A stretch of DNA of 64,000 nucleotides from Heterodontus francisci (taxonomy: Eukaryota), in NCBI RefSeq assembly GCF_036365525.1, contig NC_090387.1, forward strand, positions 88,887,691-88,951,690. The letters are read 5' to 3'. Numbering within the stretch: the first letter of the stretch is position 1; the number at the start of each line of letters is the position of its first letter. Positions 9,533 through 61,089 of this stretch are shown piece by piece. The translations under genes were made by a program, and so were the position numbers. The notes under the pieces were generated by a model that saw only the letters and a program-made list of their open reading frames with translations, did no database searches and was not told the origin of the DNA.

Positions 9533-9581
9533 ATGAGTGGAGTACTTTGGAGCATGTGTTTCCTCGGAATTTTGTATCCAG
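9533..9581 (+). CDS. IgSF receptor gene 1, exon 1 (signal peptide)
   Basis: ATG at 9533 gives MSGVLWSMCFLGILYP followed by a phase-1 donor CCAG|GTAGCT. The peptide is hydrophobic and leader-like, and the phase matches the V exon acceptor at 9852-9853. Confidence 0.75.
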
Positions 9582-9853: not shown

Positions 9854-10165
9854 TTCCCGTGGACACCTCGGGCAAGGTGACTCCAGGCATGGCACAAATG
9901 AAGGCGCTCAGAGGTACAAACATTACCTTGAAATGCCCTTTCCCCTTTCACTTGGACTATTCAAACGTAAAAGTTTACTGGTTGAGAAAGGAAAACGGTA
10001 CCTTACTGCAAGAAGATAGAAGAACACTGTTTCAGGTAAAGAAAGGTGGCGCCTACCTTCACCTTCTGAATGTGACTATGCAGGATGCCGGAACGTATCA
10101 GTGTGGAGCCAAATATCACGATCAAATGGTTGTAAAAGGAACTCTGGTGCAACTTGTTGTATATG
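9854..10165 (+). CDS. IgSF receptor gene 1, V-set Ig domain exon
   Basis: Acceptor TTGATAG| and donor TATG|GTAAG, phase 1/1. Translation VPVDTSGKVTP...NITLKC...VYW...LHLLNVTMQDAGTYQC...KGTLVQLVVY shows the B-strand Cys, C-strand Trp and DxGxYxC of a V-set domain. Sequons NIT, NGT, NVT. Confidence 0.92.
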
Positions 10166-10976: not shown

Positions 10977-11282
10977 CTGCACCCGCTCCCCTCAATATTG
11001 TCTGCATGCCATCCGAACGAGCTTCGTCAATCTTTCTGAGACTCCAGTGCCGAACCGCTGCATTTTACCCGAAGGAATTTAACCTCACCTGGCATAAAAA
11101 TGCGACGGAAATAGTGGCAGGATTTCGAACTGAACAAAAGGCAACGGAAGAGGGGCTGTATAAAGTGATCAGCTCTTTCGACGAGACACAACCGATCGAG
11201 CACGGCACTGTTTACACCTGCCACGTGTATCACATTTCAAATTCAATTCCAACAAATGCCAGCTACATTGTTGCTAACACAG
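10977..11282 (+). CDS. IgSF receptor gene 1, C1-set Ig domain exon
   Basis: Acceptor CTTTTCCATTTAG| and donor ACAG|GTACT, phase 1/1. LQCRTAAFYPKEFNLTWHKN...GLYKVISS...YTCHVYH matches the C1-set CxxxxFYP, W and YxCxVxH pattern. Sequons NLT, NAT, NAS. Confidence 0.92.
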
Positions 11283-12633: not shown

Positions 12634-12748
12634 ATTATCGCTCAGTCCTCCCCGTCCACTTGATTTATCGAACCGCAGTTGGGATATTGGTAATTATTAC
12701 ACTAATGGTGATCATGGTCAACCACATTACATCAGAAAACGTCCATAG
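12634..12748 (+). CDS. IgSF receptor gene 1, transmembrane exon
   Basis: Acceptor CCTTTTCTAG| (phase 1) and donor ATAG|GTAAG (phase 2). Translation DYRSVLPVHLIYRTAVGILVIITLMVIMVNHITSENVH contains a ~20-aa hydrophobic helix with Arg (CGA 12669-12671) at its N-terminal part. Confidence 0.85.
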
Positions 12749-17505: not shown

Positions 17506-18125
17506 AGGTGTTACTTTCGTAAACTCCCTTTGATATTTCCCGAAGTCCTAGTGTACTTCCAAAAGTGTGTTATTTAGAAATGTGCTCTAGCTGACGCTTA
17601 GCCGGTGATTTATAAAGGTGATGTATCGCTGATTTGCTTTTGTAATCTATGCCTCTATTTAAAAAGCCCATGATCCTCTATGTTTTAATAGCTTTACCAA
17701 CTTGTCTTGTCACACATATTTCTCACGAATTCGTTGAGCACCCATTTATACTAACTCAAATTCTCTATTAATTTTCAGCCTGTAATTTATTTTTGGTTTT
17801 CATTTTTTTGTTTGTTTTCTTATAGAATCATTTCCATTGTCTGGGTTCCCTGCCAATTTACAATGTAATTCAGGGTATACATTGGTCCGAAAAAATCAAA
17901 GCGCTGCCACCAGTTTTCCGCCTTAGGCTCGAGAAGAGAGAACCAGTGAACAAGCCATAAAAAGTCGTAAATTCAAAAAATGGTCATTTCCATCTAGTTT
18001 TACTGGGAATTACCATGGCGGTGCATATAAATAAGAATAGGGGTTACTAGAATATGATTTTTTAAGACGTCTATCCATGATAATTCCGAAAGGTCTCTCC
18101 TGATTTTGCACTTTTATTTGAACAG

Positions 18126-18210
18126 GAGTCCAGACGAAGAGAGCAGGAAAGACGATGTAAAATGTGGATAGTTAAGCCGGAACGGCGGGAGAGTCCAGCG
18201 AAATATGAAG
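18126..18210 (+). CDS. IgSF receptor gene 1, putative cytoplasmic exon containing an in-frame stop
   Basis: Acceptor CTTTTATTTGAACAG|. Read in phase 2: (R)SPDEESRKDDVKCG*LSRNGGRVQRNMK, with TAG at 18169-18171, ending at a phase-0 donor AAG|GTCATA. The exon is purine-rich and charged. Exons 1-5 give a 275-aa product to the stop. Confidence 0.55.
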
Positions 18211-21200
18211 GTCATAGTTGAAAAGAACAGTTCATTGAGATTCTAAATGTTAATTTCCACGAACGGTTGAATTTGGTCCTCAAACAGTTGGGCGGTTTTT
18301 AGTTTGGGATTATTTCCTTGACTGATGAAGTATGATAGTGAACTCTAAATTCTGTATTTGCGAATTCCTGCTGTTTGCTCACGATGGTCCAGTGAAAACC
18401 CCACTGTAAAGGCTCAAACGCGATTTATCTCACTTCTCCCGAGTTCTGGCGTCTCCTGTCAGAGTTAGGACTGGAGATCAGGAGAATGGCGCGAAATTTT
18501 ATCTTGAAGTTTAGAATCTGGTTTGTTATGTTCTTCAAATAAAAATGTATGTGAAAGAATATACCACTACCAAGAAGATACTGAACACACAAATCAAATG
18601 GTACTTAGGCAAGGCAAAATATGTGAAAACTTTGTAACAGAAGCACTAACCATTAAAAAAAATGGGCAATCTTCCGGAACAAGAATCACAATACTAGCTG
18701 AGTAATTCGCAAAAATTTGGTTCCCATTATCAATCCAAAAATATATCTGACAATGAATGGTGGAATACATTCTACGATATAGAGATGGCTGACGAACTAA
18801 TTAGTGACACATCAATTTGATTAAACTACTTTCCTGAAATACTATAATAATAGCCTTCTCAGTGAAACGTAATTGGCTCATTCAAGAAGTCTCTGTTTGC
18901 TGTGAGGCACAAGACTGACAATCGGGATTGATTCTATGCTGATGAAAGCGAGCCACCTAGATTATTCTGAGAGCTAAAATGAAAAGGCAATTTCTCCGTA
19001 TGAAAGGGATTACAGCGTCCTGGTGAGACCGATCCTGGAAACATCTCGAGGGATGTGCAATGGGATCCAATGGTTGTAGGAAATCTGATATGTTAATACT
19101 TAAGAAAAAAATATATTCATAACAGTCCCGCAGCTTATGGAAATTATGCCAAATGCGATGCAAGAAGCTATAGGAGGATTTTCTGTTGTTTTCATTATTA
19201 GCAAATGTTACATTCCAATAAACTGACAACAAATCAATTGCCTATAGAGAAATATTTACAAATAATAGTAATTTACCTGGAAAACAATTATCCAATACAT
19301 CTTTGAACAACAAACGACAGATGTAGTATGGAAGATAATTTAAAACAATAAATCTGTAAGGAAATCATAGGCGAAATTTAGATAGAAAGGGGGATTCCTA
19401 CGAAAAGAAAAAAAATAACTCTAAATCTTCCCAATACGTTAGACGTGAAAAGTTCGGAAACTATGCATTAGGCTTGCCAACAATGGAGTGAGCATCGCGT
19501 TTAATAAGATCTCGATATTTGTTACCCAATACAGGGAAGGGGACCTATGGTTTGGGAGCATCGTTCTTCTATATGCAAATAGAAAGAGAGCAGAGGTGTA
19601 GCTGTTGGTAATGCTACAGAATCGCTGAATGCTAGGCTGTATGTTTGGTCAAGTTACGATTTATTTCAAGTAGACAAATGGTGCAATTCCAGATACTTTG
19701 AAAGGTGGAAACTGAAATCAATTTATCACTCAGCATTGTGTACAAGTAGTGCAAGTCTGAGATACAAAATGGACCTGTATGTCAGAATCACATATAATCA
19801 TTGGTGAAGACTACAGTAAAAAAACATTTAATAAGAGTGTGTCATGATTGGTGGGTTGTTCAGGCGAATGCATGTTATAAATTGCGTGCTAATTGTGAAA
19901 ACAATGAAAGTCCGGAAAGGAACAGTTATGTATCATCTAATAGCTAGTCCGTCTTTATGAGACATGCCTTAAGTACTGTGTCATGTCTCTCTTATTGTTG
20001 GTAACTGATCGGTTGCGTATTTCTAGTGTTTCCTGTTTTTAAGTGAGATTTGGAAGGTCTTTTTTCTCTTTAATTGTACTGCAGAAATTCTGCTTATTTG
20101 GAGTACTATTGTACATCATGGGAGACGCTGACAATTAAAGTAAAGGGATCGGCTTTGAAAAGAAGCTTCAGATGAGGAAGGTGTTGTCCTTTGATCATGA
20201 CTGCAAGATTCTTAAACAGTTAGCTAAATACTTTGAGCATTATGTGGCCTTACAGCCGTTAATATGTTGGTTTCTGGGTGGAAAGCCATAAGTTGCAAAC
20301 ATCCATGCAGTCAACCACACACTTAACTGGTTGTTCAACCATGAGTGCACTGAGTTGCAGTATGTACGTGCACAAAGGAAGGACTGGCGGGGCGACAGCT
20401 GAATAGACGCATATTTCTATTATTATCTATCAATTGTGTAATGTCTTGGCGGAGAAATACTGAACGAGATGCTGTGTAAATGACCAAGGCCTGAAACAAG
20501 CATTACAAAAACTGCAGCAGAACTATTTATTGAACATAATGTACACCTACATAATGTAGTAGAAATAGCAGCCTCAAGCAATCCAGTACCTAGACACAAG
20601 ACATTGCGAAAGTTACAATTGTACAAAAGATCCAGGATGTGGCAAAAACATACCGCGTATCTATTGGGCAACATCCGTGATAAATAAGTTTTGCTTTCCA
20701 CAAAGCTTGCTGAATTCAATGGAACTAATTGAAGCAGGCTTGCCTGTGGCTAATATATAGTCGCAGGTTGACTGGTAACACATCGTGGCAGGGAAGCTTG
20801 GAGTTTGGTGACGAGCCTGCCAAACAGTTTAATTATTTCTTACCTTGGCAGCTTTCTTTCTCTATCTCATTGTTTCTACATTTTTCAAAGGTCTTTCACC
20901 TCGGCTACATCGCTTTGGGTTATGTGCTAATGGCTTCCATGTCAATATTGGAATTATGAGACAAGAAAAGGTTTATGGTCTATCTTCTATTACCCTTGTA
21001 ATAGATTCAATTCAATGATAATAGAATTATTGAAAAATCGTAGCAGTCAATATCTAGAAATTAGTCAACAACAAATCTGACATGACGCGAGAAATTATTG
21101 GAATGTTTTGGAAAACTCGAAAAGATTAAGCATGAGGAGAATAGCTAATGTGGCCGATGTGTAAATTAAATATTTAGGAGAAGCAGTTAATTACTGTCGA

Positions 21201-27824: not shown

Positions 27825-28715
27825 TTCCCTGACTCTTGACACAGGGCTTCAGCCTGCTCCGCCCTTAAAGGAATTGAGACCGTAGCCGAGGTAACAGCGT
27901 CTGGGGTATCCATTGCCCACCCAGAATGACTGTTCTCAGATGTGGAACCACATTAACAGGTCGCTGTCCGTGAGATGGTATCTCCGGATAAATGCCGCCA
28001 TTATTATCATCACGCTCTGCCCCTAGACTTACCGTGCGCATTTACAGCCAAGACCGCAGTGTCGTGCTGCTTCAGCTGACCCTGTAGCTCATAGATCTTT
28101 AACTTACACGCAGAAGGCTCAGCTTCCTGTGTCGGCTGGCTAACCGTCATCTGGATGCCGCCTTGGCCGTCCTCCAAGTCTTGCTGAAGGTTTCGAACTT
28201 GGACCTCTAACATCTGAGGTCGGTCCTTTATTTGCGGGGTCCGCAGCGCTTGCGCATCTGTCACTGCAGTACTCGCCCTACATTTGTCAGTCGACCTTTG
28301 AAATCACTCAATTTGTCCTTTACCTTCAGGCGTTCTAATACCCACTTTCCTTTGCTTTGGTAAAACTTTTATTTAACTGCTTATTCTCTTCCTGGAACGT
28401 TTCCTCTCTCATATCACCGCGCTGTGTACACAAATGGGCCGCATACTGTAATAGACGCATTTTTTAAAAAAAATTAATCTTGCGCAGGTTAATCTGTTCC
28501 TGGATCCCAACAACTGCTCCTTTTCACGAATCCCGCACCCACCCCCCCCCCCCCACCCCCCCACCGCCACCCCCAACCCTTAGCCCTTAGCAACAAAACT
28601 GATGTAGGGGACACTGTGAAACCACCTTCTCAATTTCCCCTCGCCACCTCTCTTGGTTTCCTTTGCTAAATGGCAATTAGACTCGGCCCTCCCTGCACAT
28701 GTGATTTCTCTGAGG
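27825..28715 (-). mobile_element. Probable LTR-retrotransposon gag-like remnant
   Basis: Coiled-coil-like ORF 28010-28264 and a degenerate Cys/His knuckle-like stretch near 27920-27960. It seems to continue at 32370-32500 beyond the Tx1 insert. Confidence 0.35.
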
Positions 28716-28717
28716 GA

Positions 28718-31700
28718 TTTTTTTTTTATTACCAAAATATACTTCATTCATAAAATTCTGTAGAAATTACATTACCAGTTTCAAACAGCACCAAGTCGAA
28801 AAATACAAACAGTGCAAAGGAGGTCTGTTTGCTTCATTACAATCATGAGTTGCCTCACAAACCTTCCATTTCACATCTGTCATGCCAATTACATTTTAAC
28901 ATTTTACAGCAAATGAAAATTTTCCCGATACAGTTCGATGGGTTTCCCATGGATCCAGCCACTCAATTCAGCTTGAATGGGGGACCTTACACTGTGGTCT
29001 TTCCCCATTGAGCCTTTGCTGCGGCTGCCCCAAGCTTTAGTGCGTCCCTCAGCACATAGTCCTGGACCTTGGAATGTGCCAGTCTGCAATATTCGGTCGT
29101 GGACAACTATTTGCTCTGGAAGACCAGCACGTTTCGGGCAGACCAAAGGGTGGCTTTCACCCAATTGATAGTCCTCCAGCAGTAGTTGATGTTTGTCTCG
29201 GTGTGCATCCCTGGGAACAGCCCGTAGAGCACAGACTCCTGTGTTGCAGAGCTGCTTGGGATGAACCTCGACAAAAACCACTGCATCTCTTTCCACACTG
29301 CTTTGCAAAAACACATTCCAGGAGGAGGTGGGCAACTGCCTCTTCCCCACCACAGCCACTGCAGGGGAATTTCGCAGAGGGGGCGAGACTTCGGGCATGC
29401 AGGAAGGATCTGACGGGGAGGGCTCTTCTCACCACCAGCCAAGCTACGTCTTGGTGCTTGTTTGAAAGTTCTGGTGATGAGGCATTCCGCCAAATGACTT
29501 TGGCGGTCTGCTCAGGGAACCATCTGACAGGATCCACCGTCTCCTTTTCCCGTAAGGCCTTGAGGACATTCCCTGCAGACCACTGCCTGATGGATCGGGG
29601 GTCAAAGGTGTTTTCCCGCAGAAAATGCTCCACGAAGGATAGGTGGTATGGCACGGTCCAGCTGCATGGAGCATTCCGCGGCAATGTGAGCAGGCCCATC
29701 ATTCACAACACCGGAGACAGATAGAACCTCATCACGTAGTGAGACTTGGAGTTTGTGTACTGGTGGTCGACACACAGCTTGATGCAGCCGCACACGAAAG
29801 TGGTCATCAGGATGAGGGCCACGTTGGGTACATTTTTCCCTCCCTTATCCAGAGATTTGAACATCATGTCCCTCCGGACCCGGTCCATTTTGGATCCCCA
29901 GATGAAGCGGAAAATGGCTCGGGTGACTGCCACAGCGCAGGAGTGGGGTATGGACCAGACATGAGCCACATACAGCAACAACGTGAGCGCCTCGCACCTG
30001 ATGAGCAGGCTCTTACCCACAATAGAGAGAGATCGCTGCCCCCACATGCTCAACTTTTGTTGTACCTTGGCTACTCGCTCCTCCCAGGTTTTGGTGCACG
30101 CTCCAGCCCTTCAGAACCATATCCCCAGCACCTTCAGGTAGTCTGACCTGACGGTAAAGGGGACAAAGGATCGGTCAGCCCAGTTCCCAAAGAACATGGC
30201 CTTGCTCTTGCCGTGGTTAACTTTGGCTCCCGAGGCCAGTTCGAACTGGTCACAGATGCTCATCAGTCTGTGCACGGACAGCGGATCCGAGCAGAAGACG
30301 GCGACGTCATCCATCTACAGAGAGGTTTTAACCTGAGTGCCTCCACTGCCTGGGATTGTCACCCCTCTTATGCTCGCATCCTTATAATAGACTCCGCAAA
30401 GGGTTCAATACAGCAAGCAAACAAGACTGGGGAGAGAGGACAGCTCTGTCTGACTCCAGATTGGATCTGGAAACATTCCGATTCCCACCCATTGATTGAG
30501 ACTGCCTTACTGATGTTTGCGTAGAGCAGTTTGATCCAATTGCAGATTCCCTCTCCAAACCCCATTTTGGAAAGCACGTCCATCATGTAGGTGTGCGATA
30601 TCCCATCAAAAGCCTTCTCCTGGTCCAGGCTGATGAGGCAGGTGTCCACCCTCCTGTCCCATACATAGGCGATCGTATCCCTGAGTAGCGCGAGACTATC
30701 AGAGATCTTTCTGCTGGGTACAGTGCAGGTCTGATCAGGGTGTATCACCAACTCCAGAGAAGACTTGACTCAACTGGCTATTACTTTGGACAGAATCTTG
30801 TAGTCAATATTAAGCAGTGAGATGGGCAGCCAATTTCTGATTTCAGCCCTCTCCCCCTTCCGCTTGTAGATAAAGGTGATGATGCCTTTCCTCATGGATT
30901 CTGGCATGTTGCAGGCCAGGAGCATACTCACGTATACTTCCAGCAGGTCCGGGCCGACCCAGTCCCACAGGGTCGAATACAACTCGACCGGTAAGCCATC
31001 GCATCCGGGAGTTTTACTCATCTTGTAGGACTCAACGGACTTTGTCAGCTCATCCAGAGTTAGCGGCTTGTCCAGTCTCCGCCTCGTGCTGTCATCTAAG
31101 ACCTCTGTGATAGATGACAGGAAGGACTGGGAGGCTCTGCTCATACAGCCCAGCATAAAAGGATTTGCTGATCCTTAGTATGTCAGCCTGCGAAGACGTT
31201 ACCGAGCCATCCTCTTTCTTCAGGCTGCTGATAACAGAACTCTCTCTGTGTACATTTTGGAAGAAGTAACGCTAGCACGTCTCATCCTGCTCGATGGAGC
31301 GGACTCTGGACCGGAAGATGATATTGGAGGCTTCAGTGGCAAAGAGCGAGACCTGCTGGCTCTTCACCTCTTGGAGGTCCTCCTTGACCTCGACCCCCAT
31401 AACTGTAGCCGGAGCAGATTTTGCATACTTTTCTGGAGTCGGGACATTTCCCTCTGTCTCTCTCTCGCTCTTTGAACACCTTTTTGGATGAAGAACCTCT
31501 TGATATTCTCCTTGATCGCTTCCCACCAGTGAACTGGAGACTCAAAGAGGGGTTTCACGGTCCTCCAACCTTTGTAATCCTTTTTGAGTTCCTCAACGTT
31601 CTCTGGGGTCAGCAGTGTAGCATTGAGCTTCCACGTCCCTCTGCCAACCCGCTGGTCGTCCTGTAAGTGACAGTCGGCCAATAAGAGGCAGTGGTTGGAG

Positions 31701-32369
31701 AAGAACACCGGCTTGATATCGGTGGATCGGACTACTTTTTATTTACTCACCTATCCTGGAACGGACCGACCCATCCGATCTTGACTATGTGTATCTGCAC
31801 TGCGCTCTGTCAGCAGGTTTGCTGCAGACGTCGTGCAGTTTGGCATCTTTAACTGTTTCTATTAGGAATCTGGACGTAGCGTCCAGTTTGCTATCGTCTC
31901 TGCCGGATCGTCCAGCCGCATCATTGATGCAGTTGAAGTCACCGCCTAGGATGACCGGCCTGGACGTCAGCAGCAGCAGTGGAGCTGCTGGAAGATGGTG
32001 AGCCGCTCGCTGCGTTGTACCTGGGCGTACACGTTGATCAACCAGAGTGGAGCATTGTTGTACATTACGTCTGCTACGAGGAGGCGACCGCCCACCACCT
32101 CCCTAACTTCAGGGATGGTGAAATTACCTCCCCGCAGCTGAATACCCAGGCCGGAGAAACGGCAATCATTACCCCCTGACTTGATCGATGGTTCGTGGGA
32201 CCACCATCGCGACCAGTGCCTGTAGGTGCTGAGGTGTGGTATTCCACACTCCTGCAGAAACAGTAGGTCGGTTTTGACCTTGGCGAGGTAATCCAAGGTT
32301 GAAACACATCGCGTAGTGGATTTAATGCTACGTACATTCATGGAAGCAATTCTTACACCCATTTTTTTT
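28718..32369 (-). mobile_element. Tx1-clade (L1 group) LINE, ORF2 only, frameshifted
   Basis: MGVRIASMNVRS..FLQEC (APE), KTPGCDGLPVELY, PISLLNIDYKIL, LDQEKAFD, GVRQSCPLSP, MDDV (RT), and a C-terminal C..CGGEE..AHLLLEC zinc knuckle. Poly(A) tail at 28718-28727. Confidence 0.88.
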
Positions 32370-32933
32370 AAAGTTAGTTGTTGCTTCCCAGACCATTTAG
32401 GGATAACTTCACTTTGGAGAAAATTATCCAAAAAATCCTCCCCTGTTATTTTTTGCCGGAATGGCCCCAACTCGCAATCCAGCACAAACACTCACAACAC
32501 TGCCATACTAGTTTTTATTTACTCACCTATCTGGTCGTCATTTCTTACTAGTAATTTGGTTATATAGCTAAACTATAACTTTAACTACCACTGTAGTTGT
32601 CGTAATAACATTTCTTAAGATCTAGTGTAAAGTTAGTAGCTTGATTTTAAATTAGTTGTTAATTACGCTGATTATTTATGTAACTCATTATATACATGTG
32701 AATTAGAAGAAAGGCTGACTATAGTAAATTAAATGACCGCAATTGTTGACAACGCGATCGGTAGGTGGCGCTGTTTTGGCACATGCGCAGATACAGCATG
32801 TGCCACGAAAACGTCACAGCCTGCGACTGTTGCAGCTGCCAGGACTAAAGATGGCGCTGCTCAAAAAATCACAGAGATGAAACCTAACAAACACGTGGCA
32901 GAAATCAATGGCCGGAGTGAGAGAGTGGAGCGG

Positions 32934-33038
32934 GCCGGGGAGAGCAGCGCGGGGGCCGGGGAGATCAGCGCGGGGGCCGGGGAGATCAGCGCGGGGGCCG
33001 GGGACAGCAGCGCGGGGGCCGGGGAGAGCAGCGCGGGG
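32934..33038. repeat. GC-rich minisatellite, 5 x 21 bp
   Basis: Unit GCCGGGGAGA(G/T)CAGCGCGGGG repeated five times. Confidence 0.9.
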
Positions 33039-33059
33039 AAACCAGCGGTAGCAGTGCCG

Positions 33060-33497
33060 GGGAGGGGGGGGGAGAAAGAGGGAGGGGAGGAGAAAGAGGG
33101 AGAGAAAGAGGGAGGGGAGAGGGGGAGAAAGAGGGAGGGGAGAGGGGGAGAAAGAAGGAGGGGAGAGGGGGAGAAAGAAGGAGGGGAGAGGGGGAGAAAG
33201 AGGGAGAGGTCAGGAAGGGGGGAGGGGGAGAAAGAGGGAGGGGGAGAAAGAGGGAGAGGGAGGGGGGAGAAAGAGGGAGAGGGAGGGGGAGGAGAAAGAG
33301 GGAGAGGGAGGGGGGAGAGAGAGGGAGGGGGGAGAAAGAGGGAGAGGGGAGAAAGAGGGAGAGGGGGAGAAAGAGGGAGAGAAAGGGGGAGGGGGAGAGA
33401 AAGGGAGAGGGGGGTGAAAGAGGGAGAGGGAGGGGTAAGGAAGGGGGAGGGGGAGAGCTGGGGAGAGAGGGAGGAAGGGGAGAGAGTGGGGGGGGGA
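33060..33497. repeat. Polypurine (G/A) low-complexity tract
   Basis: About 440 bp almost entirely G/A, with GGGGGAGAAAGAGGGA-like units. Confidence 0.9.
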
Positions 33498-34239
33498 GCA
33501 GCGGAACGGAAGAGGAGCACCTTTATCTGTGCATGCGCCATAAACACAACAGCAAAAGACTTACTGGCCAGTCCCTGGACCCGGTGACACCAAGGTCTTC
33601 GCACGCTCGCTCCCCCCGGCTCTCTACGGCCTCTCGCTTCCGGCCCTCTCCATTCAGCCGTTCCCTCCAGCTGCGGATGCCCAATCCAGTTGCTTTCTCC
33701 CCTACCCAGTTGCTTTCTCTACTTCTCCTCAGTACTTCAGGCATTGCAACTGTTTGGTCCCTGCATTTTGCATGCTCCCTCTCCCCACCCCTCCCCGCAC
33801 TCCCCACCCCTCCCCCTCTTCAAACACCCCTCCCTCTACCCCCCCCCCCCCCCCCCCCACCATAGTTGAATATCTGAAGTGCAGTTGCAAAGTCGGGGAA
33901 ATAGCATGCAAAACAAAACCTCAACAATTCTGGGTTTAATTATTGAAAAGTTTTATTAAGTTCATTAAGTATCCGAGGAACTGCTGTGCATGGATACATG
34001 AGTGTTGTGTCCAGCATTCCCGTTAGACAGACAGGCCGATTCTCTGCTATGCACAGCTAAAGAGATTGTTCCTGGAGAGCCTTGTGGTGAATAAACGCTT
34101 GGCTCTCTATTCCACTACTGTATTGTCCATGTGAAGAAGGCAAAGTCACAAGAGTCTGTGCATGTGCGCACCGCGGCGCATCCTGATGACGTTCTCCGAT
34201 GAAGTAGCGTTGTCATGAATTACTTTGTACTTCATAACA

Positions 34240-35930
34240 TTGCCAGTGCTGTCACTGAACTGCAACAGCTTAGCTAACGGTGCGACTAGTTCTCAAGAAC
34301 TAATCTTCAATGCGAAAGCGGGGATGTTGTCAGAGCCCAGAGCCTTTGATGCCTCCAGCGACTTCAGCCTTTTCTTGAAATCAAGTGGAGTTAACTAAAT
34401 TGGCTGAAAGCGGACATCTGTGATGCTGGAGAACAACATAGATCATCACTGGGCACTTCCAATTGAAGATGATTGTAAATGCTTCAACCTTGTCTTTTGC
34501 ACTGACGTGCTCCCATTAAGAATGGGGATGTTTGTGGCGCCTCCTTCTCTGAATAGGTGTTTAATGGCCAACGCCATTCACCACTGGAGGCGAAAGGACT
34601 GTAAAGCTTTGACCTGATTCATTTGTGTTGGATCACTTAGCTCTGGCAATAGAATGTTGCTTCCGCTGTTTAGCATGCGCATAGTCCCGTGCCCTAGCTG
34701 CGCCAGGTTGCATCCCAGTTTAAATATGTCTGGTGTTGCTCCTGGCATGCTCTTCTACATTTTTTTTGATTGAACCAGGAATGGTCACCTGACTTGATGG
34801 CAATGATCGACTGAGGAGTATACCAGTCCATGATGTTACAGATTGCGATTGCATACAATTCCAGTGTTGCTGTTGGCCCACAGTGCCTACTGGATGCCAA
34901 GTTGTAAGCTGTTAGATCTGTTTACCAGGTGGTAATGTCACTCAACACGACGCAAAGTATCCTCAGTGTGAAGATGGGACTTTGGCTCCACGAGGACTGT
35001 GCGATAGTCACTCCTAACAAGTCTTACATTGACAAATGCATCTACAAGTGGATTGGTGAGGACAAGTTCAAATACGTTTCTCCCTCACCACCTGCTGCAG
35101 GCCATGTCTAGCATATATTTCCTTCAGACCTCGGCCTGCAGTGGTTCTAAAGAGCAGCTCTTCATGCTGGACATTGAAGTCCTTGCTCCAAATGGTGTTA
35201 AACATGGAGGAGCACTTATTCATTAGCTGAAGGACGGCGCTAGGTGGTATTCATCAGGAGGTTTCCTTGTCCAGATTTGACCTGATGCCATGAGTCAATG
35301 TTGAGAACCCACAGGTCACCTCCTCCCGAGTGTATACCTCTGTGCCAGCACCTCTGGTAGGTATGGCCTGACAATGGAACAAGACATAACCAGATATGGA
35401 GACGGAGAAGTCTGGGACAATAGCTGTAAGGTATGATTCAGTCTGTATGACTGTGTCAGGTGGTTGCCTTATTAGTCCGTGCCAACCCTCCCAATGTTGG
35501 CACAAACCACCAGAAGTTAATGAGCTGGAACCTGTAGGGTCCACTGGGCAGGTTGCGCTGCTGTGATTTCTGGGCCCTCGGTCGCTGCCAGGTGGTCCAT
35601 CGCTTTTGTCTTCATTTAACTTTTCTGTAGTGGTGCAATTGAGAGGCTGTTTAGGCATTTCATAGGGCAATTAAGAGTCAATCACTTTGCTTTGAGTCTG
35701 GAGTTATACGGCAACCAGACTTGGGCTGGACGGCAGATTTCCGTTCCTGAAGGGCATGGATGGACCAGATGGGGTTTTGCAGCAATCCGGTAATTCGACT
35801 ATTTTTCTTTTCTTTTATATATTCCAGATTTATTAATTAATTGATTAAAATGATTTGAACTCATGATCCCAGGCCATTAGATGAGGCTTCTGGATGACTT
35901 GCCGAGCAGCATTACCGCTATGCTACCGTC
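34240..35930 (-). mobile_element. LINE family B, older copy (tRNA-like head and APE region)
   Basis: Colinear with 14850-16650. ORF 35254-35670 contains QPPDTVIQTESYL..SGYVLFH. Confidence 0.75.
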
Positions 35931-36431
35931 TTCCTCCTACTTACACAATACTTAATCGTGAATTGCCCCTTCGATTCAATTTTTATAAAATTGATGTAAA
36001 CCATTCATCAACAGGATAGTGTTTTCACAGTGAGATTTGCATTTTATCTGTGCTCTTAAGACAAAATTTTAAATTATTCAACTTTAGACTGGCATCGCAA
36101 ATCGGGACTGCCGTTGGAACAGTCAGACTCACCTGCCAGCCAGGTCGGCTAAAAGCAAGAGTTCGCAATGTCGGGGCTAACGGAGCGGAATGTCTATCTA
36201 TCTGATTTAATGGTCGTTACCGCTTCATTAACTCCAATTTCAAGTCGCTGCAATCAGCCACAATAAAGGAAAAGCAAACTTCCAATTTTTGCAGGCATGC
36301 TAGTTCTAAGTATCGAGTGCAGATTCACCAAACCGGCAATTAAAACATTTGATAAGAAACCATCACTGCCCATGTTATAAATCTGCTGACTGGTAAAAAA
36401 CAGAATATAACACTATATCTAAATATTCCAG

Positions 36432-36575
36432 ATTCCCCAAATGGAAGCTAAAGAAGGACTGATCTACTGTGCTCTAGATTTCGTCGGTCAGAAGAAAGGT
36501 CCCAGACCTACGCGGCACGAAGACACCTTAGTATATGTCCACGTGCAGTTCAAGAAACAGAACAGCATGCTCTGA
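36432..36575 (+). CDS. Terminal cytoplasmic exon with two ITIM-like motifs (probably the last exon of receptor gene 1 or a relic of it)
   Basis: Acceptor TTCCAG|, phase 0: IPQMEAKEGLIYCALDFVGQKKGPRPTRHEDTLVYVHVQFKKQNSML*. LIYCAL and LVYVHV fit (I/V/L/S)xYxx(L/V). AATAAA follows at 36808 and 36896. Confidence 0.7.
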   Translation: MPQMEAKEGLIYCALDFVGQKKGPRPTRHEDTLVYVHVQFKKQNSML

Positions 36576-38874
36576 ACCCAAGGCCATGTAAGAAAATTAA
36601 GGCGTCAATAGAATCTTCTCCTCATCAAGTCACTTCATCGAGAGCTTCGGTCTCGGGCTATGAAGAATTTTTGGTCTATTGCATTTTTCTGCTTCCGTGC
36701 TTCACAAAAATGTTTTATCCGATGTAAAAGATATTTGTAAATACCCACGATGTTCGTAAAAGTTCATGTAGCATGTGCACACCAGACCGTCTGCTGTCGA
36801 ATCTGAAAATAAAGGTTCTCAAGTTCGACCAGGGAACATAATCAGATGTTATTCTTAGTCTTGGAATGCGTCTCAACATTGTCAGAACTAAGTTAAATAA
36901 AAGGCTAAAATGTTAAGTATTTTCTGAATACGTTGACAATCTTTGCACTTATATTCGAACGGTACCCTGTATAGCTGTGCGAAAAATATTTCTCATTTAC
37001 TGAATTGCTCCAATAAAAAAAAAGAAATACAAAAGCTTTGCTGAAACTAAAGTGCTCTCAATTAGAAACGTAACCTTGACTGAAGTATTCAAACATTGGA
37101 ATTCTCGTCAAACATGACTGAATTACACAATTAAGTAACTCGTCGGACAGCTTCCTTTGGAGCTGCGATCAGTTTTGTCGTAATACGGCTGTTCGATTTG
37201 TCTTCAACGTCAGCTTTCCCTGACATTCTCACATTCCGCGTTTATCATAAAGGTTTCTATTTTCAACGTAATTTATTGCAGGGACCATTCTGCAAACGTG
37301 CTCGCATATAATTCTATTCCCTAACGATGGCTGGAACTGTGTTTCTACATAATGTGTGTTTATGACTGTTTGCTTTACATTATACATCGTTCAATCACAG
37401 TACTGCAAAAAGAAAATCGCTATTCGGTATTGCCAGAATTAATGAACAGTCATCATTACTATGGTGGCTATGCTTTCCCAGCATTGAACATTCAATGGAG
37501 AAAGGACAATGAATGTGCTAAATATTAACTTTCACCTGATTGACCTTAACTCTAGCCCAAGACATGACTCTCCTTACGCAAGGTACCTGATATTCATGAG
37601 GGTCATGTTGATGGGGGCCCAGGGTATGACGATCGGGACTTGGGAAGGCCAGGGAAAGGGAGGCCCGAGGTTTTATTGCATGGCCCTGAGCAGCACTTCT
37701 CCACCCCCTCCCCCCACCCCCCAGTACCTCAACAAAACTTAAAATGACTGTGAGCTTACTTGCCCTCTTCTGTCCCTCAAAGCTGTCATCCGAACCTGAT
37801 TTGCATATTTAAAGTGAAGGCTCACACTCGAGTCGACAATACTCTAACAGAAATATACGAAGAAGGATGATAATTTCCATTGTGTTATATGAGGTTATAG
37901 TATAATTGTTTAGATCCTTCCCCTTATGAATTATAATTTATGTTAACGAGGAAGTTGACAGTTTCGTTGCTGTTGTATTGCGTTTCAGCATTAAATTTCA
38001 ATGTATAATGTACTCAGTGAATTATTCGGCGTCGTCGGTTTCGGAAGTGACAAAGGCATGGATGAGGGTTTCAGAAGCGGATGGTCTCAGGTAGATGTAG
38101 AGATGGTTCACATAACACTTAATAAATGTGGTATTTGTTTAACTGGCATCAGTGAAGCTCGATCTCATGCCCAGCACACAAGCAAACGAGAAGTCAAAAA
38201 ATGGACTGCCGAGAGTTGGCTATATGCTAATCATTCTAATCATATGGTAGGACCAATCCTACTTGGGATGTGCATCGCGAGCCAAAGTCCATGCCGGATT
38301 TTTGTCATGAACAATTTTTGAGGCCTATAACAACCTAGGTAGCCAATAACTTTCCATCCAGTCGACAACTCTGCAGCCCTCAATTTACACAACTATTCTA
38401 TCGGCTCTAATTTGATGTGCCAGTCTCGAGCAAATCTTTCACTGCCGTGTATCATGATTGTTCCCCTTAGCACGCTGCTCACCTTTGCACCGTCAAGTGA
38501 AAAAGACTTAGACTTAAGCGCACCTGGCACCCGACTGACATGGACATCCATCACCAGGTCCCCCAAATGTTATGCTCCATCCGCCTGCAAAGAAGGCCAA
38601 CATTCCATTTACCTTCTTAATTACTTGTTGTACCTGCATGCTAATTGTTATGACTCTTGAACGAGGACACCTAGATCCCTCTGTAACGCAGCATTCTGTA
38701 GTCCCTCTCCATGTAGATAATATTCTGTTTTGATATTCTTCCTGCCAAAGTGGATAACCTCACATTTTTCCACATCATCCTCCCACTACCTATTTTTTGT
38801 CCATTCACTTAACCTATTTATATATCTTTGCAGATACGTGTGCCTTCCTCATAACTTGCTTTCTTCGCTATCAT

Positions 38875-57900: not shown

Positions 57901-59283
57901 ATCTCTGCCCTCACTACTCTCAACATCCTGCACACTGGAACTACAATTTAGGTTCCCATCCCCCTGCTGAATTAGTTTAAACCTCCCCCCCCCCCCGCCC
58001 CCCCGAAGAGCACTAACAAACCTCCCCCCCAGGATATTGGTACCCCTCTGGTTCAGGTGAAGACCATCCTGTTTGTAGAGGTCCCACCTACCCCAGAAAG
58101 AGCCCCAATTATCCAGGAAACCAAAATGCTCCCTCCTACACCATCCCTGCAGCCACGTGTTCAACTCATCTCTCTCCCTATTCCTCACTTCGCTAGCACG
58201 TGGCACGGGCAACAACCCAGAGATAACAACTCTGTTTGTTCTCGCTCTAAGCTTCCACCCTAGCTCCCTGAATTTCTGCCTTAAATCCCCATCTGTCTTC
58301 CTACCTATGTCGTTGGTGCCTATGTGTACCACGACTTGGGGCTGCTCCCCCTCCCCCTTGAGGATCCCAAAAACACGATCCGAGACCTCACGTACCCTGG
58401 CACCTGGGAGGCAACACACCAACCGTGAGTCTCTCTCGTTCCCACAAAACCTCCTATCTGTTCCCCTAACTATGGAGTCCCCAATGACTAATGCTCTGCT
58501 CCTCTTACCCCTTCCCTTCTGAGCAACAGGGACAGACTCTGCGCCAGAGACCTGTATCCCATTGCCTACCCCTGGTAAGTCGTCTCCCCCAACAGTATCC
58601 AAAACGGTATACCTGTTGTTGAGGGAAACGGCCACAGGGGATCCCTGCACTGCCTGCTGGTTCCCTCTCCTTCCCCTAACGGTAACCCATCTACCTTCTT
58701 CTTTTACCTGAGGTGTGACTGCCTCTCGATAACTCCTCTCAATAATACCCTCCACCTCCCGAATGATCCGAAGTTCCTCCAGCTCCAGCTCCAGTCCTCG
58801 AGGAGCTGGAGCTGGGTGCACTTCCCGCAGATGCAGTCAGCAGGGACACCCTTGGCGACCCTTACCTCCCACATTCTGCAGGAGGAACATTCAACTGCCT
58901 TAACCTCCATTCCCACTATTCTAAATTCCCAAGTTTTTAACCAATCACACGATAAAACAAAAAGAGAAATAGAAAAAGCCTTACCTTACCTACACACAAC
59001 CGAGTCCTTTTTTTGGTAAGAGGAGGAGGGCGGGTGGGAGACACTACAAGAGTAGTGTCTCGGGTTCAGAAACAGCCCAAATATATAGGTTTCTACTTAC
59101 CCAGCAGTCCCTGCTCCACCGAAACTCCCGATGAAATTGACTTCCCAGCTGTTCACTCCTCGCTCGCAATGCCTGTGCTCCTGGAAAAGCCAGCAGTCCC
59201 TGCTCCACCGAAACTCCCGATGAAATTGACTTCCCAGCTGTTCACTCCTCGCTCGCAATGCCTGTGCTCCTGGAAAAGCTGCA
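54994..59283 (-). mobile_element. Full-length CR1 LINE, second subfamily
   Basis: 706-aa RT ORF 55076-57196 (PQGSVLGP, FADD), EN 57242-57646, ORF1 esterase 57634-58916 with frameshifts. (AGAACAT)n tail. Its 5'UTR is homologous to that of the 48501 copy. Confidence 0.95.
59101..59278. repeat. Two exact 89-bp tandem monomers at the 5' end of the CR1
   Basis: CCAGCAGTCCCTGCTCCACCGAAACTCCCG...CTGGAAAAG occurs at 59101 and again at 59190. Confidence 0.9.
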
Positions 59284-60494: not shown

Positions 60495-60561
60495 ATGCGT
60501 TTAATCTTGGTTCTAAACGTCCTGTTTCAGTATTGTGCCACACTGGGGATTTTCTGCAGAG
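60495..60561 (+). CDS. IgSF receptor gene 2, signal-peptide exon
   Basis: MRLILVLNVLFQYCATLGIFCR followed by a phase-1 donor AGAG|GTACGT. The layout matches gene 1 (short intron before the V exon). Confidence 0.75.
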
Positions 60562-60768
60562 GTACGTGACTGATTTTATACAACAGGTTCGCTTCTGCAG
60601 TAGAGAGTTTTCTGAAATTGAACAACATTTTTTTGTTCTCTTTGTTCTGTTTTATTGGTCACATTTTAAATTTTGTGATTTATCTTCCTCCTCTGCTTTC
60701 TTCTGATTTTAACTGCTCGAATCCTGTGTTTCATGTAAATATTCTGCTACAATATCTATTTCCCATAG

Positions 60769-61089
60769 CTGCCCAAGATGGTTCTCTGACAGTCACACAG
60801 TTACCTGATTTTATAGCGGTGCACAGGGGTGAAAACGTTACCCTATACGGCAACGTATCTGGATTGCAGGCGAACGAGGACATAATTGTTTACTGGAGCA
60901 AGACAGTTTCCAATTCATCCGAAGCAATAAGGCCTGACACCCAAAAAATATCTCGTGGTCTACAGAATGGAGATTTTTTCCTTCATCTGCGTAGTGTGAG
61001 TGTCCAAGATTCTGGAGTCTACATCAGTAGAGTGATGGCCGGGGGATCCAAAATTTCTGATGGATGCGGCACAGAACTTGTTGTATGTG
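60769..61089 (+). CDS. IgSF receptor gene 2, V-set domain exon lacking both canonical Cys (possibly a pseudogene)
   Basis: Acceptor TTTCCCATAG| and donor TGTG|GTAAG. AAQDGSLTVTQ..RGENVTLYG..VYW..FLHLRSVSVQDSGVYIS..GCGTELVVC is paralogous to the gene 1 V exon (shared VYW, LHL..V..QD.G.Y, LVV, G|GTAAG). Confidence 0.8.

What the first reader, a model, noticed from the sequence alone, without database searches (positions are those of the whole stretch)
36432..36575. Unlisted 47-aa exon with tandem ITIMs, 18 kb from the nearest receptor exon
Seen in sequence: LIYCAL (Tyr at 36465) and LVYVHV (Tyr at 36534), with the tyrosines 23 residues apart, then a stop and AATAAA at 36808 and 36896. It is too short for the ORF track. 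Established: this spacing suits tandem-SH2 phosphatases SHP-1/2, as in SIRPalpha, KIR and LILRB. The frame is intact although the acceptor's pyrimidine tract is weak, so the exon is either still used or only recently silenced. It could instead be the remnant of a deleted paralogue.
Basis: partly seen in the sequence, partly recalled or inferred. Interest (0 to 1): 0.7.

Follow-up and report, generated by a model that had tools for sequence, protein, structure and literature searches.

The report
Orphaned brake exon, deleted shark receptor
This is a real, intact copy of the last 'off-switch' exon of a neighbouring shark immune-receptor gene, but its own front exons are absent, so it is likely a leftover of a recently deleted sister gene, an ordinary event in such gene clusters.

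Summary
The exon is real. It is an 81%-identical duplicate of the last exon of the next gene, B (RefSeq 'SIRP-alpha-like', P0001). An RNA-type contig with B's letters splices at the same acceptor. It does not look like gene A's tail: A has an Arg in its transmembrane segment, a gene-A contig runs through the only in-frame donor past a stop into 3' UTR, and A's orthologues have short tails without tandem ITIMs. No B-type upstream exons were found for it in the assembly. It is still far better conserved (8% diverged, no indels) than its intron (19%) or a control orphan with similar flank divergence (18%). Homology to B stops at a very young transposon that lacks its usual 9-bp target duplication. 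Best reading: the tail of an inhibitory paralogue whose 5' exons were deleted recently. Occasional use by gene A is not excluded. The scan has reported this shark paired-receptor family several times on other DNA. Ordinary birth-and-death evolution; low interest.

The parts
36432..36575 (+). Intact 47-codon terminal ITIM exon, duplicate of gene B's last exon; no own upstream exons found
   Evidence: 12/144 substitutions and 0 indels vs gene B
36459..36476 (+). ITIM 1, LIYCAL (Tyr 36465)
   Evidence: consensus S/I/V/LxYxxI/V/L from PMC8631942
36528..36545 (+). ITIM 2, LVYVHV (Tyr 36534)
   Evidence: same consensus
36386..36431 (+). Branch-point-like CTGAC (recalled consensus) and purine-rich acceptor, both shared with gene B's spliced acceptor
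36576..37017 (+). 3' UTR-like stretch with AATAAA at 36808 (shared with B; B's contig ends about 13 nt after it), 36896 (not in B) and 37012 (shared)
34241..38202 (+). Block homologous to gene B's last intron, last exon and 3' flank (74-80% identity)
32735..34227 (.). Very young, internally deleted copy of a 3.3-4.6 kb DNA transposon (Mutator-like by recalled features) without target-site duplication; inferred deletion junction
27833..32733 (-). Old fragmented non-LTR retroelement (RVT_1, zf-RVT) left of the junction; no homology to gene B's intron
9533..9581 (+). Gene A leader exon
   Evidence: sequence; similar to the P0002 N-terminus
9854..10165 (+). Gene A V-set exon (98% aa identical to gene A', P0002)
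10977..11282 (+). Gene A C1-set exon (88% aa identical to gene A')
12634..12748 (+). Gene A transmembrane exon with Arg (IYRTAVG)
18126..18543 (+). Gene A's own terminal exon: short tail, TAG at 18169-18171, AATAAA at 18538; an RNA-type contig runs 18124-18413 through the poor GAT|GTAAAA donor
60495..61089 (+). Gene B leader and V exon (its C1, TM, first tail exon and last exon lie beyond the window, up to G000:C17:88983745)

Best explanation
The exon is an intact duplicate of gene B's terminal tandem-ITIM exon with no upstream exons of its own, likely left behind when the 5' part of an inhibitory sister gene was deleted recently, probably by recombination at a young transposon. Shown: homology to B's spliced last exon; no B-type V, C1, TM or first tail exon found for it; gene A's own short terminal exon; low divergence confined to exon and UTR; a young transposon without target duplication at the left end of homology. 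Inferred: a tandem duplication made a second B-type receptor (V-C1-TM-ITIM tail) that worked as an immune brake by recruiting SHP-1/2 to its phosphorylated ITIMs; it stayed under constraint for most of its history; recombination between two transposon copies then removed its promoter and roughly 35 kb of 5' exons, too recently for the tail exon to decay. The exon now likely makes no protein.
For: (1) Two close copies at DNA level in G000, this one and B's (2 of 2 candidates, 85%). (2) B's copy ends NCBI protein P0001; contig X1 record 3 carries B's letters at 28 of 28 listed sites and its loose end is B's previous exon. (3) No parent: best other B-C1 match 55% among 150 of 284 candidates scored; the only other B first-tail-exon match is a 70% pseudogene; 116 family proteins gave no tblastn hit in 12750-36430. 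(4) Gene A ends elsewhere: X1 record 7 (0 other letters) spans 18124-18413, and the depth bins fit its first 36 nt lying on the TM exon (13.1 + 23.1 nt); the six closest TM homologues (4 species) have no tandem ITIM. (5) Recent constraint: coding 12/144 vs intron 216/1128 (p 0.0008), UTR 23/254 (p 7e-5); simulated survival if dead since duplication 7.8%; a control orphan tail with 17% flank divergence shows 37/208 in its exons and a stop (p 0.012 vs this exon); polarised changes 2 on this copy, 6 on B, 3 unresolved. (6) Junction: 282 nt of the transposon are 99% identical to 39 other top hits (2907 candidates); 9 of 12 other copies with both ends found have an exact 9-bp duplication, this copy has none.
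Against: dN/dS against B is 1.2 (2 synonymous, 9 nonsynonymous) and synonymous divergence (6.7%) is below the intron rate (p 0.057), which fits gene conversion as well as selection; exon-bounded conversion does occur in this cluster (V exon). 2 of 12 other transposon copies also lack a duplication and 1 has only 7 bp, so its absence is only suggestive. The outgroup for polarising is only 62-65% identical. The TM-to-18126 joint was inferred from depth arithmetic because the joint table was cut. All RNA evidence is contigs from one sample, and contigs drop rare isoforms.
Confidence: 0.68

Rival explanations
1. Gene A uses the exon as an alternative last exon, through the donor after 18156, making a receptor with an Arg transmembrane segment and two ITIMs that could switch between activating and inhibiting.
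For: V-C1-TM-31-nt exon-ITIM exon is in frame. The exon is as conserved as B's expressed copy. A GT at that position is implied by a conserved Val in orthologues. One family protein, P0039, has a TM-edge Arg and an ITIM. KIR2DL4 and NKp44-1 are precedents (passages).
Against: GAT|GTAAAA has neither -1 G nor +5 G, while the 5 other donors listed all have -1 G (the compensation rule is recalled). A gene-A contig reads through it past a stop toward an AATAAA. 0 of the 6 closest TM homologues have a tandem-ITIM tail. The only 2 bridging mini-exon candidates lie in retroelement sequence.
Confidence: 0.12
2. The copy died long ago (or was a 4-kb duplicate dead on arrival) and looks young because gene conversion from gene B refreshed the exon and UTR.
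For: Low synonymous divergence, dN about equal to dS, and similar 8-11% divergence over exon and proximal UTR. The V exons of A and A' differ by 1.9% inside exon borders with 15.6% in the flanks, as reported for Xenopus CEACAM pairs (PMC5112662 passages). Simulated survival under this model is 22%.
Against: A dead copy should gain more changes than expressed B, yet polarised changes are 2 vs 6 (p 0.004 if its share were 0.75). The low-divergence zone starts at the acceptor and fades after the distal AATAAA, the extent of a mature transcript. The model does not explain the young junction.
Confidence: 0.1
3. The parent gene is whole in the animal and the assembly has mis-joined across the GA-rich young transposon, hiding about 35 kb.
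For: The junction lies in a 99%-identical high-copy repeat with a GA-rich tract and an internal deletion.
Against: No N in 344 kb around the locus. No second B-type C1 or tail exon was found on any contig, within the candidates scored.
Confidence: 0.08

Closest known systems
RefSeq XP_067905014.1 (P0001), 'tyrosine-protein phosphatase non-receptor type substrate 1-like', Heterodontus francisci = gene B
   Same: Last exon 81% identical; same acceptor context, phase, ITIM pair, 23-residue spacing and first AATAAA.
   Different: B keeps leader, V, C1, TM and a first ITIM exon and is spliced in an RNA-type contig; its frame runs 9 codons longer. This copy has no upstream exons.
Cartilaginous-fish V-C1-TM receptor cluster (RefSeq labels vary: SIRP-alpha-like, NCR3LG1-like, tapasin-related, MHC II-like)
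   Same: The exon is one copy of the family's tail module (23 matches, all on C17; invariant L-Y-AL..KK..E..Y..V in 4 aligned copies).
   Different: It is an orphan module, not part of a complete gene.
SIRP family (SIRP-alpha/beta/gamma)
   Same: Clustered genes, V-set plus C1-set Ig domains, ITIM-bearing and charged-TM members with similar ectodomains (PMC3716694 passages).
   Different: Two Ig domains rather than three; no preferential sequence match to SIRP-alpha in the PDB; CD47 binding and synteny untested.
Paired immune receptors in general (KIR, LILR, PILR, CEACAM)
   Same: Inhibitory ITIM member beside a short-tailed Arg-TM member with a near-identical V domain (PMC3533184, PMC5112662 passages). 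Gene loss by recombination in such clusters (LILRA3, SIGLEC14, KIR haplotypes) is recalled, not from a call.
   Different: No orthology to any of them is shown; ligands and signalling are untested.

Membership tests
ITIM | Consensus S/I/V/LxYxxI/V/L | tested here: met
   LIYCAL and LVYVHV; consensus from PMC8631942
ITIM | Lies in the cytoplasmic tail of an expressed transmembrane protein | tested here: inconclusive
   True for the paralogue in gene B; no parent or junction found for this copy
ITIM | Phosphorylation and recruitment of SHP-1/SHP-2 | not testable with these tools
   Needs binding assays; the pY+1 Val of ITIM 2 is of the type PMC8631942 found favourable for SHP-1
Cartilaginous-fish V-C1-TM receptor cluster, inhibitory tail module | Sequence homology to the family's 23-spaced tandem-tyrosine module | tested here: met
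   81% to P0001; 16 of 116 stored proteins hit at E<=0.01; 23 is the modal spacing, 20 of 58
Cartilaginous-fish V-C1-TM receptor cluster, complete gene | Own leader, V, C1 and TM exons upstream | tested here: not met
   None of B type in 12750-36430 or found elsewhere in G000
SIRP | Three extracellular Ig domains | tested here: not met
   Genes A, A' and B have one V and one C1 exon; three domains per PMC3716694
SIRP | Closest sequence relative is SIRP | tested here: inconclusive
   SIRP-alpha 4e-9, B7-H6 3e-9, antibody heavy chains up to 3e-10
SIRP | CD47 binding | not testable with these tools
   No assay possible
SIRP | Conserved synteny with the tetrapod SIRP locus | not tested
   Flanking non-family genes were not identified
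Paired receptors (genes A and A') | Clustered genes with similar ectodomains | tested here: met
   V 98%, C1 88%, 88 kb apart
Paired receptors (genes A and A') | One ITIM member, one short-tailed member with TM Arg/Lys | tested here: met
   P0002 has 4 ITIM-consensus motifs; gene A has TM Arg and a short ITIM-less tail
Paired receptors (genes A and A') | Opposite signalling and adaptor coupling shown | not testable with these tools
   Needs cell assays

The most novel reading that the evidence does not exclude
An activating shark receptor (gene A, Arg in the membrane) has captured the ITIM exon of its deleted neighbour as an alternative last exon, giving one gene switchable 'on' and dual-signal isoforms: exon capture caught in the act.
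Probability: 0.12. Interest if true: 0.55.

Novelty: new member of a known kind. Interest (0 to 1): 0.22.

Why it matters
Modestly. It is a clean example of birth-and-death evolution in a large shark paired-receptor cluster (47 C1 matches on one contig) for which my paper searches found no description. It predicts that an inhibitory receptor gene may be present in some individuals and missing in others. It also warns annotators not to attach this exon to the upstream activating-type gene. Only proven splicing onto gene A would make it surprising.

Tried and rejected
Run search with 36432-37050: no RNA holder listed, only three same-sample runs. No contig with this copy's letters was laid in X1-X3; the one contig on the exon carries B's letters. 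Neither blank is evidence on expression. A longer-protein search with the peptide gave 1 hit among 2 candidates, weak evidence that no model holds this copy. A search for gene B orthologues, to use as an outgroup, gave only 34-42% matches (3 besides itself among 204 candidates), so dN/dS against orthologous exons could not be done. A genome-wide profile search of the tail module could not be run; a single-peptide search was used instead. Pfam has no family for the exon. The upstream B-like pseudogene (G000:C17:88787857-88792881) was rejected as the parent: about 70% identical to B, 130 kb away, two genes between. A direct TM-to-36432 splice is out of frame and gives a 10-residue tail with no ITIM. 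A dead-since-duplication model was rejected. Paper searches found no description of this family or exon; four papers on shark NCR3 and VJ-C1 genes were not held, so absence from print is not established. No supplements were read. Earlier-findings look-ups by place and by sequence were empty. No structure or complex was predicted, because an unstructured phospho-tail is not informative there.

Full report
Observation. The exon is as described: acceptor AG at 36430-36431, 47 codons, LIYCAL and LVYVHV with tyrosines 23 codons apart, TGA, and AATAAA at 36808, 36896 and 37012. Both motifs fit the ITIM consensus given in PMC8631942 (passages). The pattern alone is not rare: 2 hits in the window's six frames. 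Homology settles that it is real.

Setting. The window is G000:C17:88887691-88951690. A search with gene A's C1 exon gave 49 matches, 47 on C17 (150 of 236 candidates scored). In 344 kb around the window the order on the + strand is: an ITIM-tailed gene (P0021); fragments of a B-like pseudogene; gene A' (P0002); a decayed copy of the present exon with two stops; an orphan, decayed A'-type tail; gene A; the present exon; gene B. The family's tail module has 23 matches among 37 candidates, all on C17. NCBI names the proteins of B and A' 'tyrosine-protein phosphatase non-receptor type substrate 1-like' from Heterodontus francisci. P0001 maps exon by exon onto gene B, so G000 is likely that species.

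It is a copy of gene B's last exon. The second copy lies 59 kb downstream (81% aa; 85% DNA, 2 of 2 candidates) and ends P0001. In run X1 (RNA by the tool's guess; contigs only; one sample) a 781-nt contig lies on 36429-36826. All 28 listed substitutions match B, and its loose end is B's previous exon. So the homologous acceptor is used in B although it is as purine-rich as this one, and B's contig ends just after the first shared AATAAA.

It is likely not gene A's tail. Gene A's exons can be joined in frame to this exon if a donor after 18156 is used. That donor, GAT|GTAAAA, lacks both -1 G and +5 G, while the 5 other donors listed have -1 G (the rule that one of the two is nearly always present is recalled). 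X1 record 7 matches 18124-18413 with 0 other letters and runs through the donor and the stop at 18169-18171; an AATAAA follows at 18538. Its first 36 nt fit the TM exon by depth arithmetic (13.1 + 23.1 nt); the joint row itself was cut from the output. The six closest TM homologues (61-85%, four species) have tails of 0-42 residues; none has a tandem ITIM and one has a single terminal motif. The Scyliorhinus canicula protein P0014 ends like gene A. Of 165 stored proteins, 116 were at most 520 aa, 109 had a C1 match and 77 a detectable TM. My pattern called a TM Arg in 10 of the 77; 8 had no ITIM/ITSM motif and 2 had one. The pattern missed several Arg-TM proteins visible by eye, and the set holds isoforms. 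Gene A (Arg, short tail) and A' (4 ITIM motifs) share V at 98% and C1 at 88%, meeting the sequence criteria for paired receptors in PMC3533184 and PMC3716694 (passages).

It has no parent in the assembly. No B-type leader, V, C1, TM or first tail exon lies between gene A and the exon. Genome-wide, the best other match to B's C1 is 55% (150 of 284 candidates scored), and the only other match to B's first tail exon is the 70% pseudogene. There are no Ns in the region.

It was constrained until recently. Against B: coding 12/144 substitutions and no indels, proximal UTR 23/254, intron 216/1128 with 13 indels (p 0.0008 and 7e-5). Simulated survival of frame, AG and both ITIMs if neutral since duplication is 7.8%. 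The orphan A'-type tail has 17% flank divergence, its exons decayed at that rate (37/208) and it has a stop (p 0.012 against this exon). With the decayed third copy as outgroup, 2 changes fall on this copy, 6 on B and 3 are unresolved. Against this reading: dN/dS is 1.2 on 11 changes, synonymous divergence is low (2 of 30 sites, p 0.057), and the outgroup is distant. Exon-bounded conversion is real in this cluster: the A and A' V exons differ by 1.9% while their flanks differ by 15.6%, as described for Xenopus CEACAM pairs (PMC5112662 passages).

The junction. Homology to B's last intron starts at about 34241. Directly left of it lies a 1493-nt, internally deleted copy of a 3.3-4.6 kb element; 282 nt of it are 99% identical to 39 other top hits of 2907 candidates. 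I examined 13 other copies (12 plus-strand hits fetched, and L048): 1 lacked an end; of the other 12, 9 have an exact 9-bp target duplication, 1 has 7 bp and 2 have none. The window copy has none. The 9-bp duplication and a SWIM-like motif suggest a Mutator-like transposon (recalled). Its left flank is an old retroelement unrelated to B's intron. The simplest reading is recombination between two young copies that deleted the DNA between them. By analogy with B (leader to that intron position, 33 kb) the loss would include the promoter and all 5' exons. About 1% divergence among transposon copies against about 10% per lineage since the duplication would put the loss in roughly the last tenth of the gene's history. 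This step is inference.

Mechanism and rivals. Best (0.68): recently orphaned tail of an inhibitory paralogue that likely signalled through SHP-1/2 and is likely silent now. Rivals: alternative last exon of gene A (0.12), old pseudo-exon refreshed by conversion (0.10), mis-join (0.08).

Comparison with what is known. The parent type works like an inhibitory paired receptor such as SIRP-alpha, but SIRP membership is not met on domain number (two, against three in PMC3716694) and is inconclusive by sequence. Dual-signal precedents for the novel case are KIR2DL4 and NKp44-1 (passages). PMC10751288 (passages) mentions VJ-C1 genes only in general. Other papers were seen as search listings only. Eight searches found no description of this family, but four relevant papers were not held. 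The scan's earlier notes describe the same family in other genomes, including an orphan ITIM exon; they are unchecked AI notes and not independent support.

Verdict. Observation confirmed, interpretation partly supported, new member of a known kind, interest 0.22.

Noticed in passing
window 9854-10165 vs G000:C17:88809425-88809736: The V exons of genes A and A' differ by 1.9% exactly within exon borders, while introns differ by 15.6% and C1 by 9.2% (dS 0.21): likely exon-confined gene conversion between an activating and an inhibitory partner.
   Followed up: partly
window 60769-61089: Gene B's V exon is open but lacks both canonical Ig cysteines; NCBI model P0001 skips it, giving a C1-only receptor.
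   Followed up: no
G000:C17:88874008-88874364 (L017): A second orphan: a decayed A'-type two-exon ITIM tail with a stop and no V, C1 or TM of its own; used as control.
   Followed up: yes
G000:C17:88821185-88823227 (L004, L005): Gene A' has its two tail exons duplicated in tandem (1018-bp period, 99% identical), doubling its tyrosine motifs in P0002.
   Followed up: partly
G000:C17:88787857-88792881 and 88841265-88841399: 5' fragments of a B-like pseudogene and a decayed copy of the present exon lie on either side of gene A', as if A' sat in the old gene's last intron or several deletions had occurred.
   Followed up: partly
window 32735-34227: Very young, high-copy DNA transposon family (3.3-4.6 kb, 9-bp target duplications, GA-rich tract, SWIM-like motif), possibly still active.
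   Followed up: partly
window 59101-59279: Perfect 90-bp direct repeat about 1.2 kb upstream of gene B's leader.
   Followed up: no
protein P0039 (unnamed source): Family member with an Arg at the TM edge and an ITIM in an 81-residue tail, a possible natural dual-signal receptor.
   Followed up: no
G000:C17:90718824-90791059 (L027, L028): Two weak matches (E 0.3-0.4) to gene A's Arg-TM exon, possibly further activating-type members.
   Followed up: no
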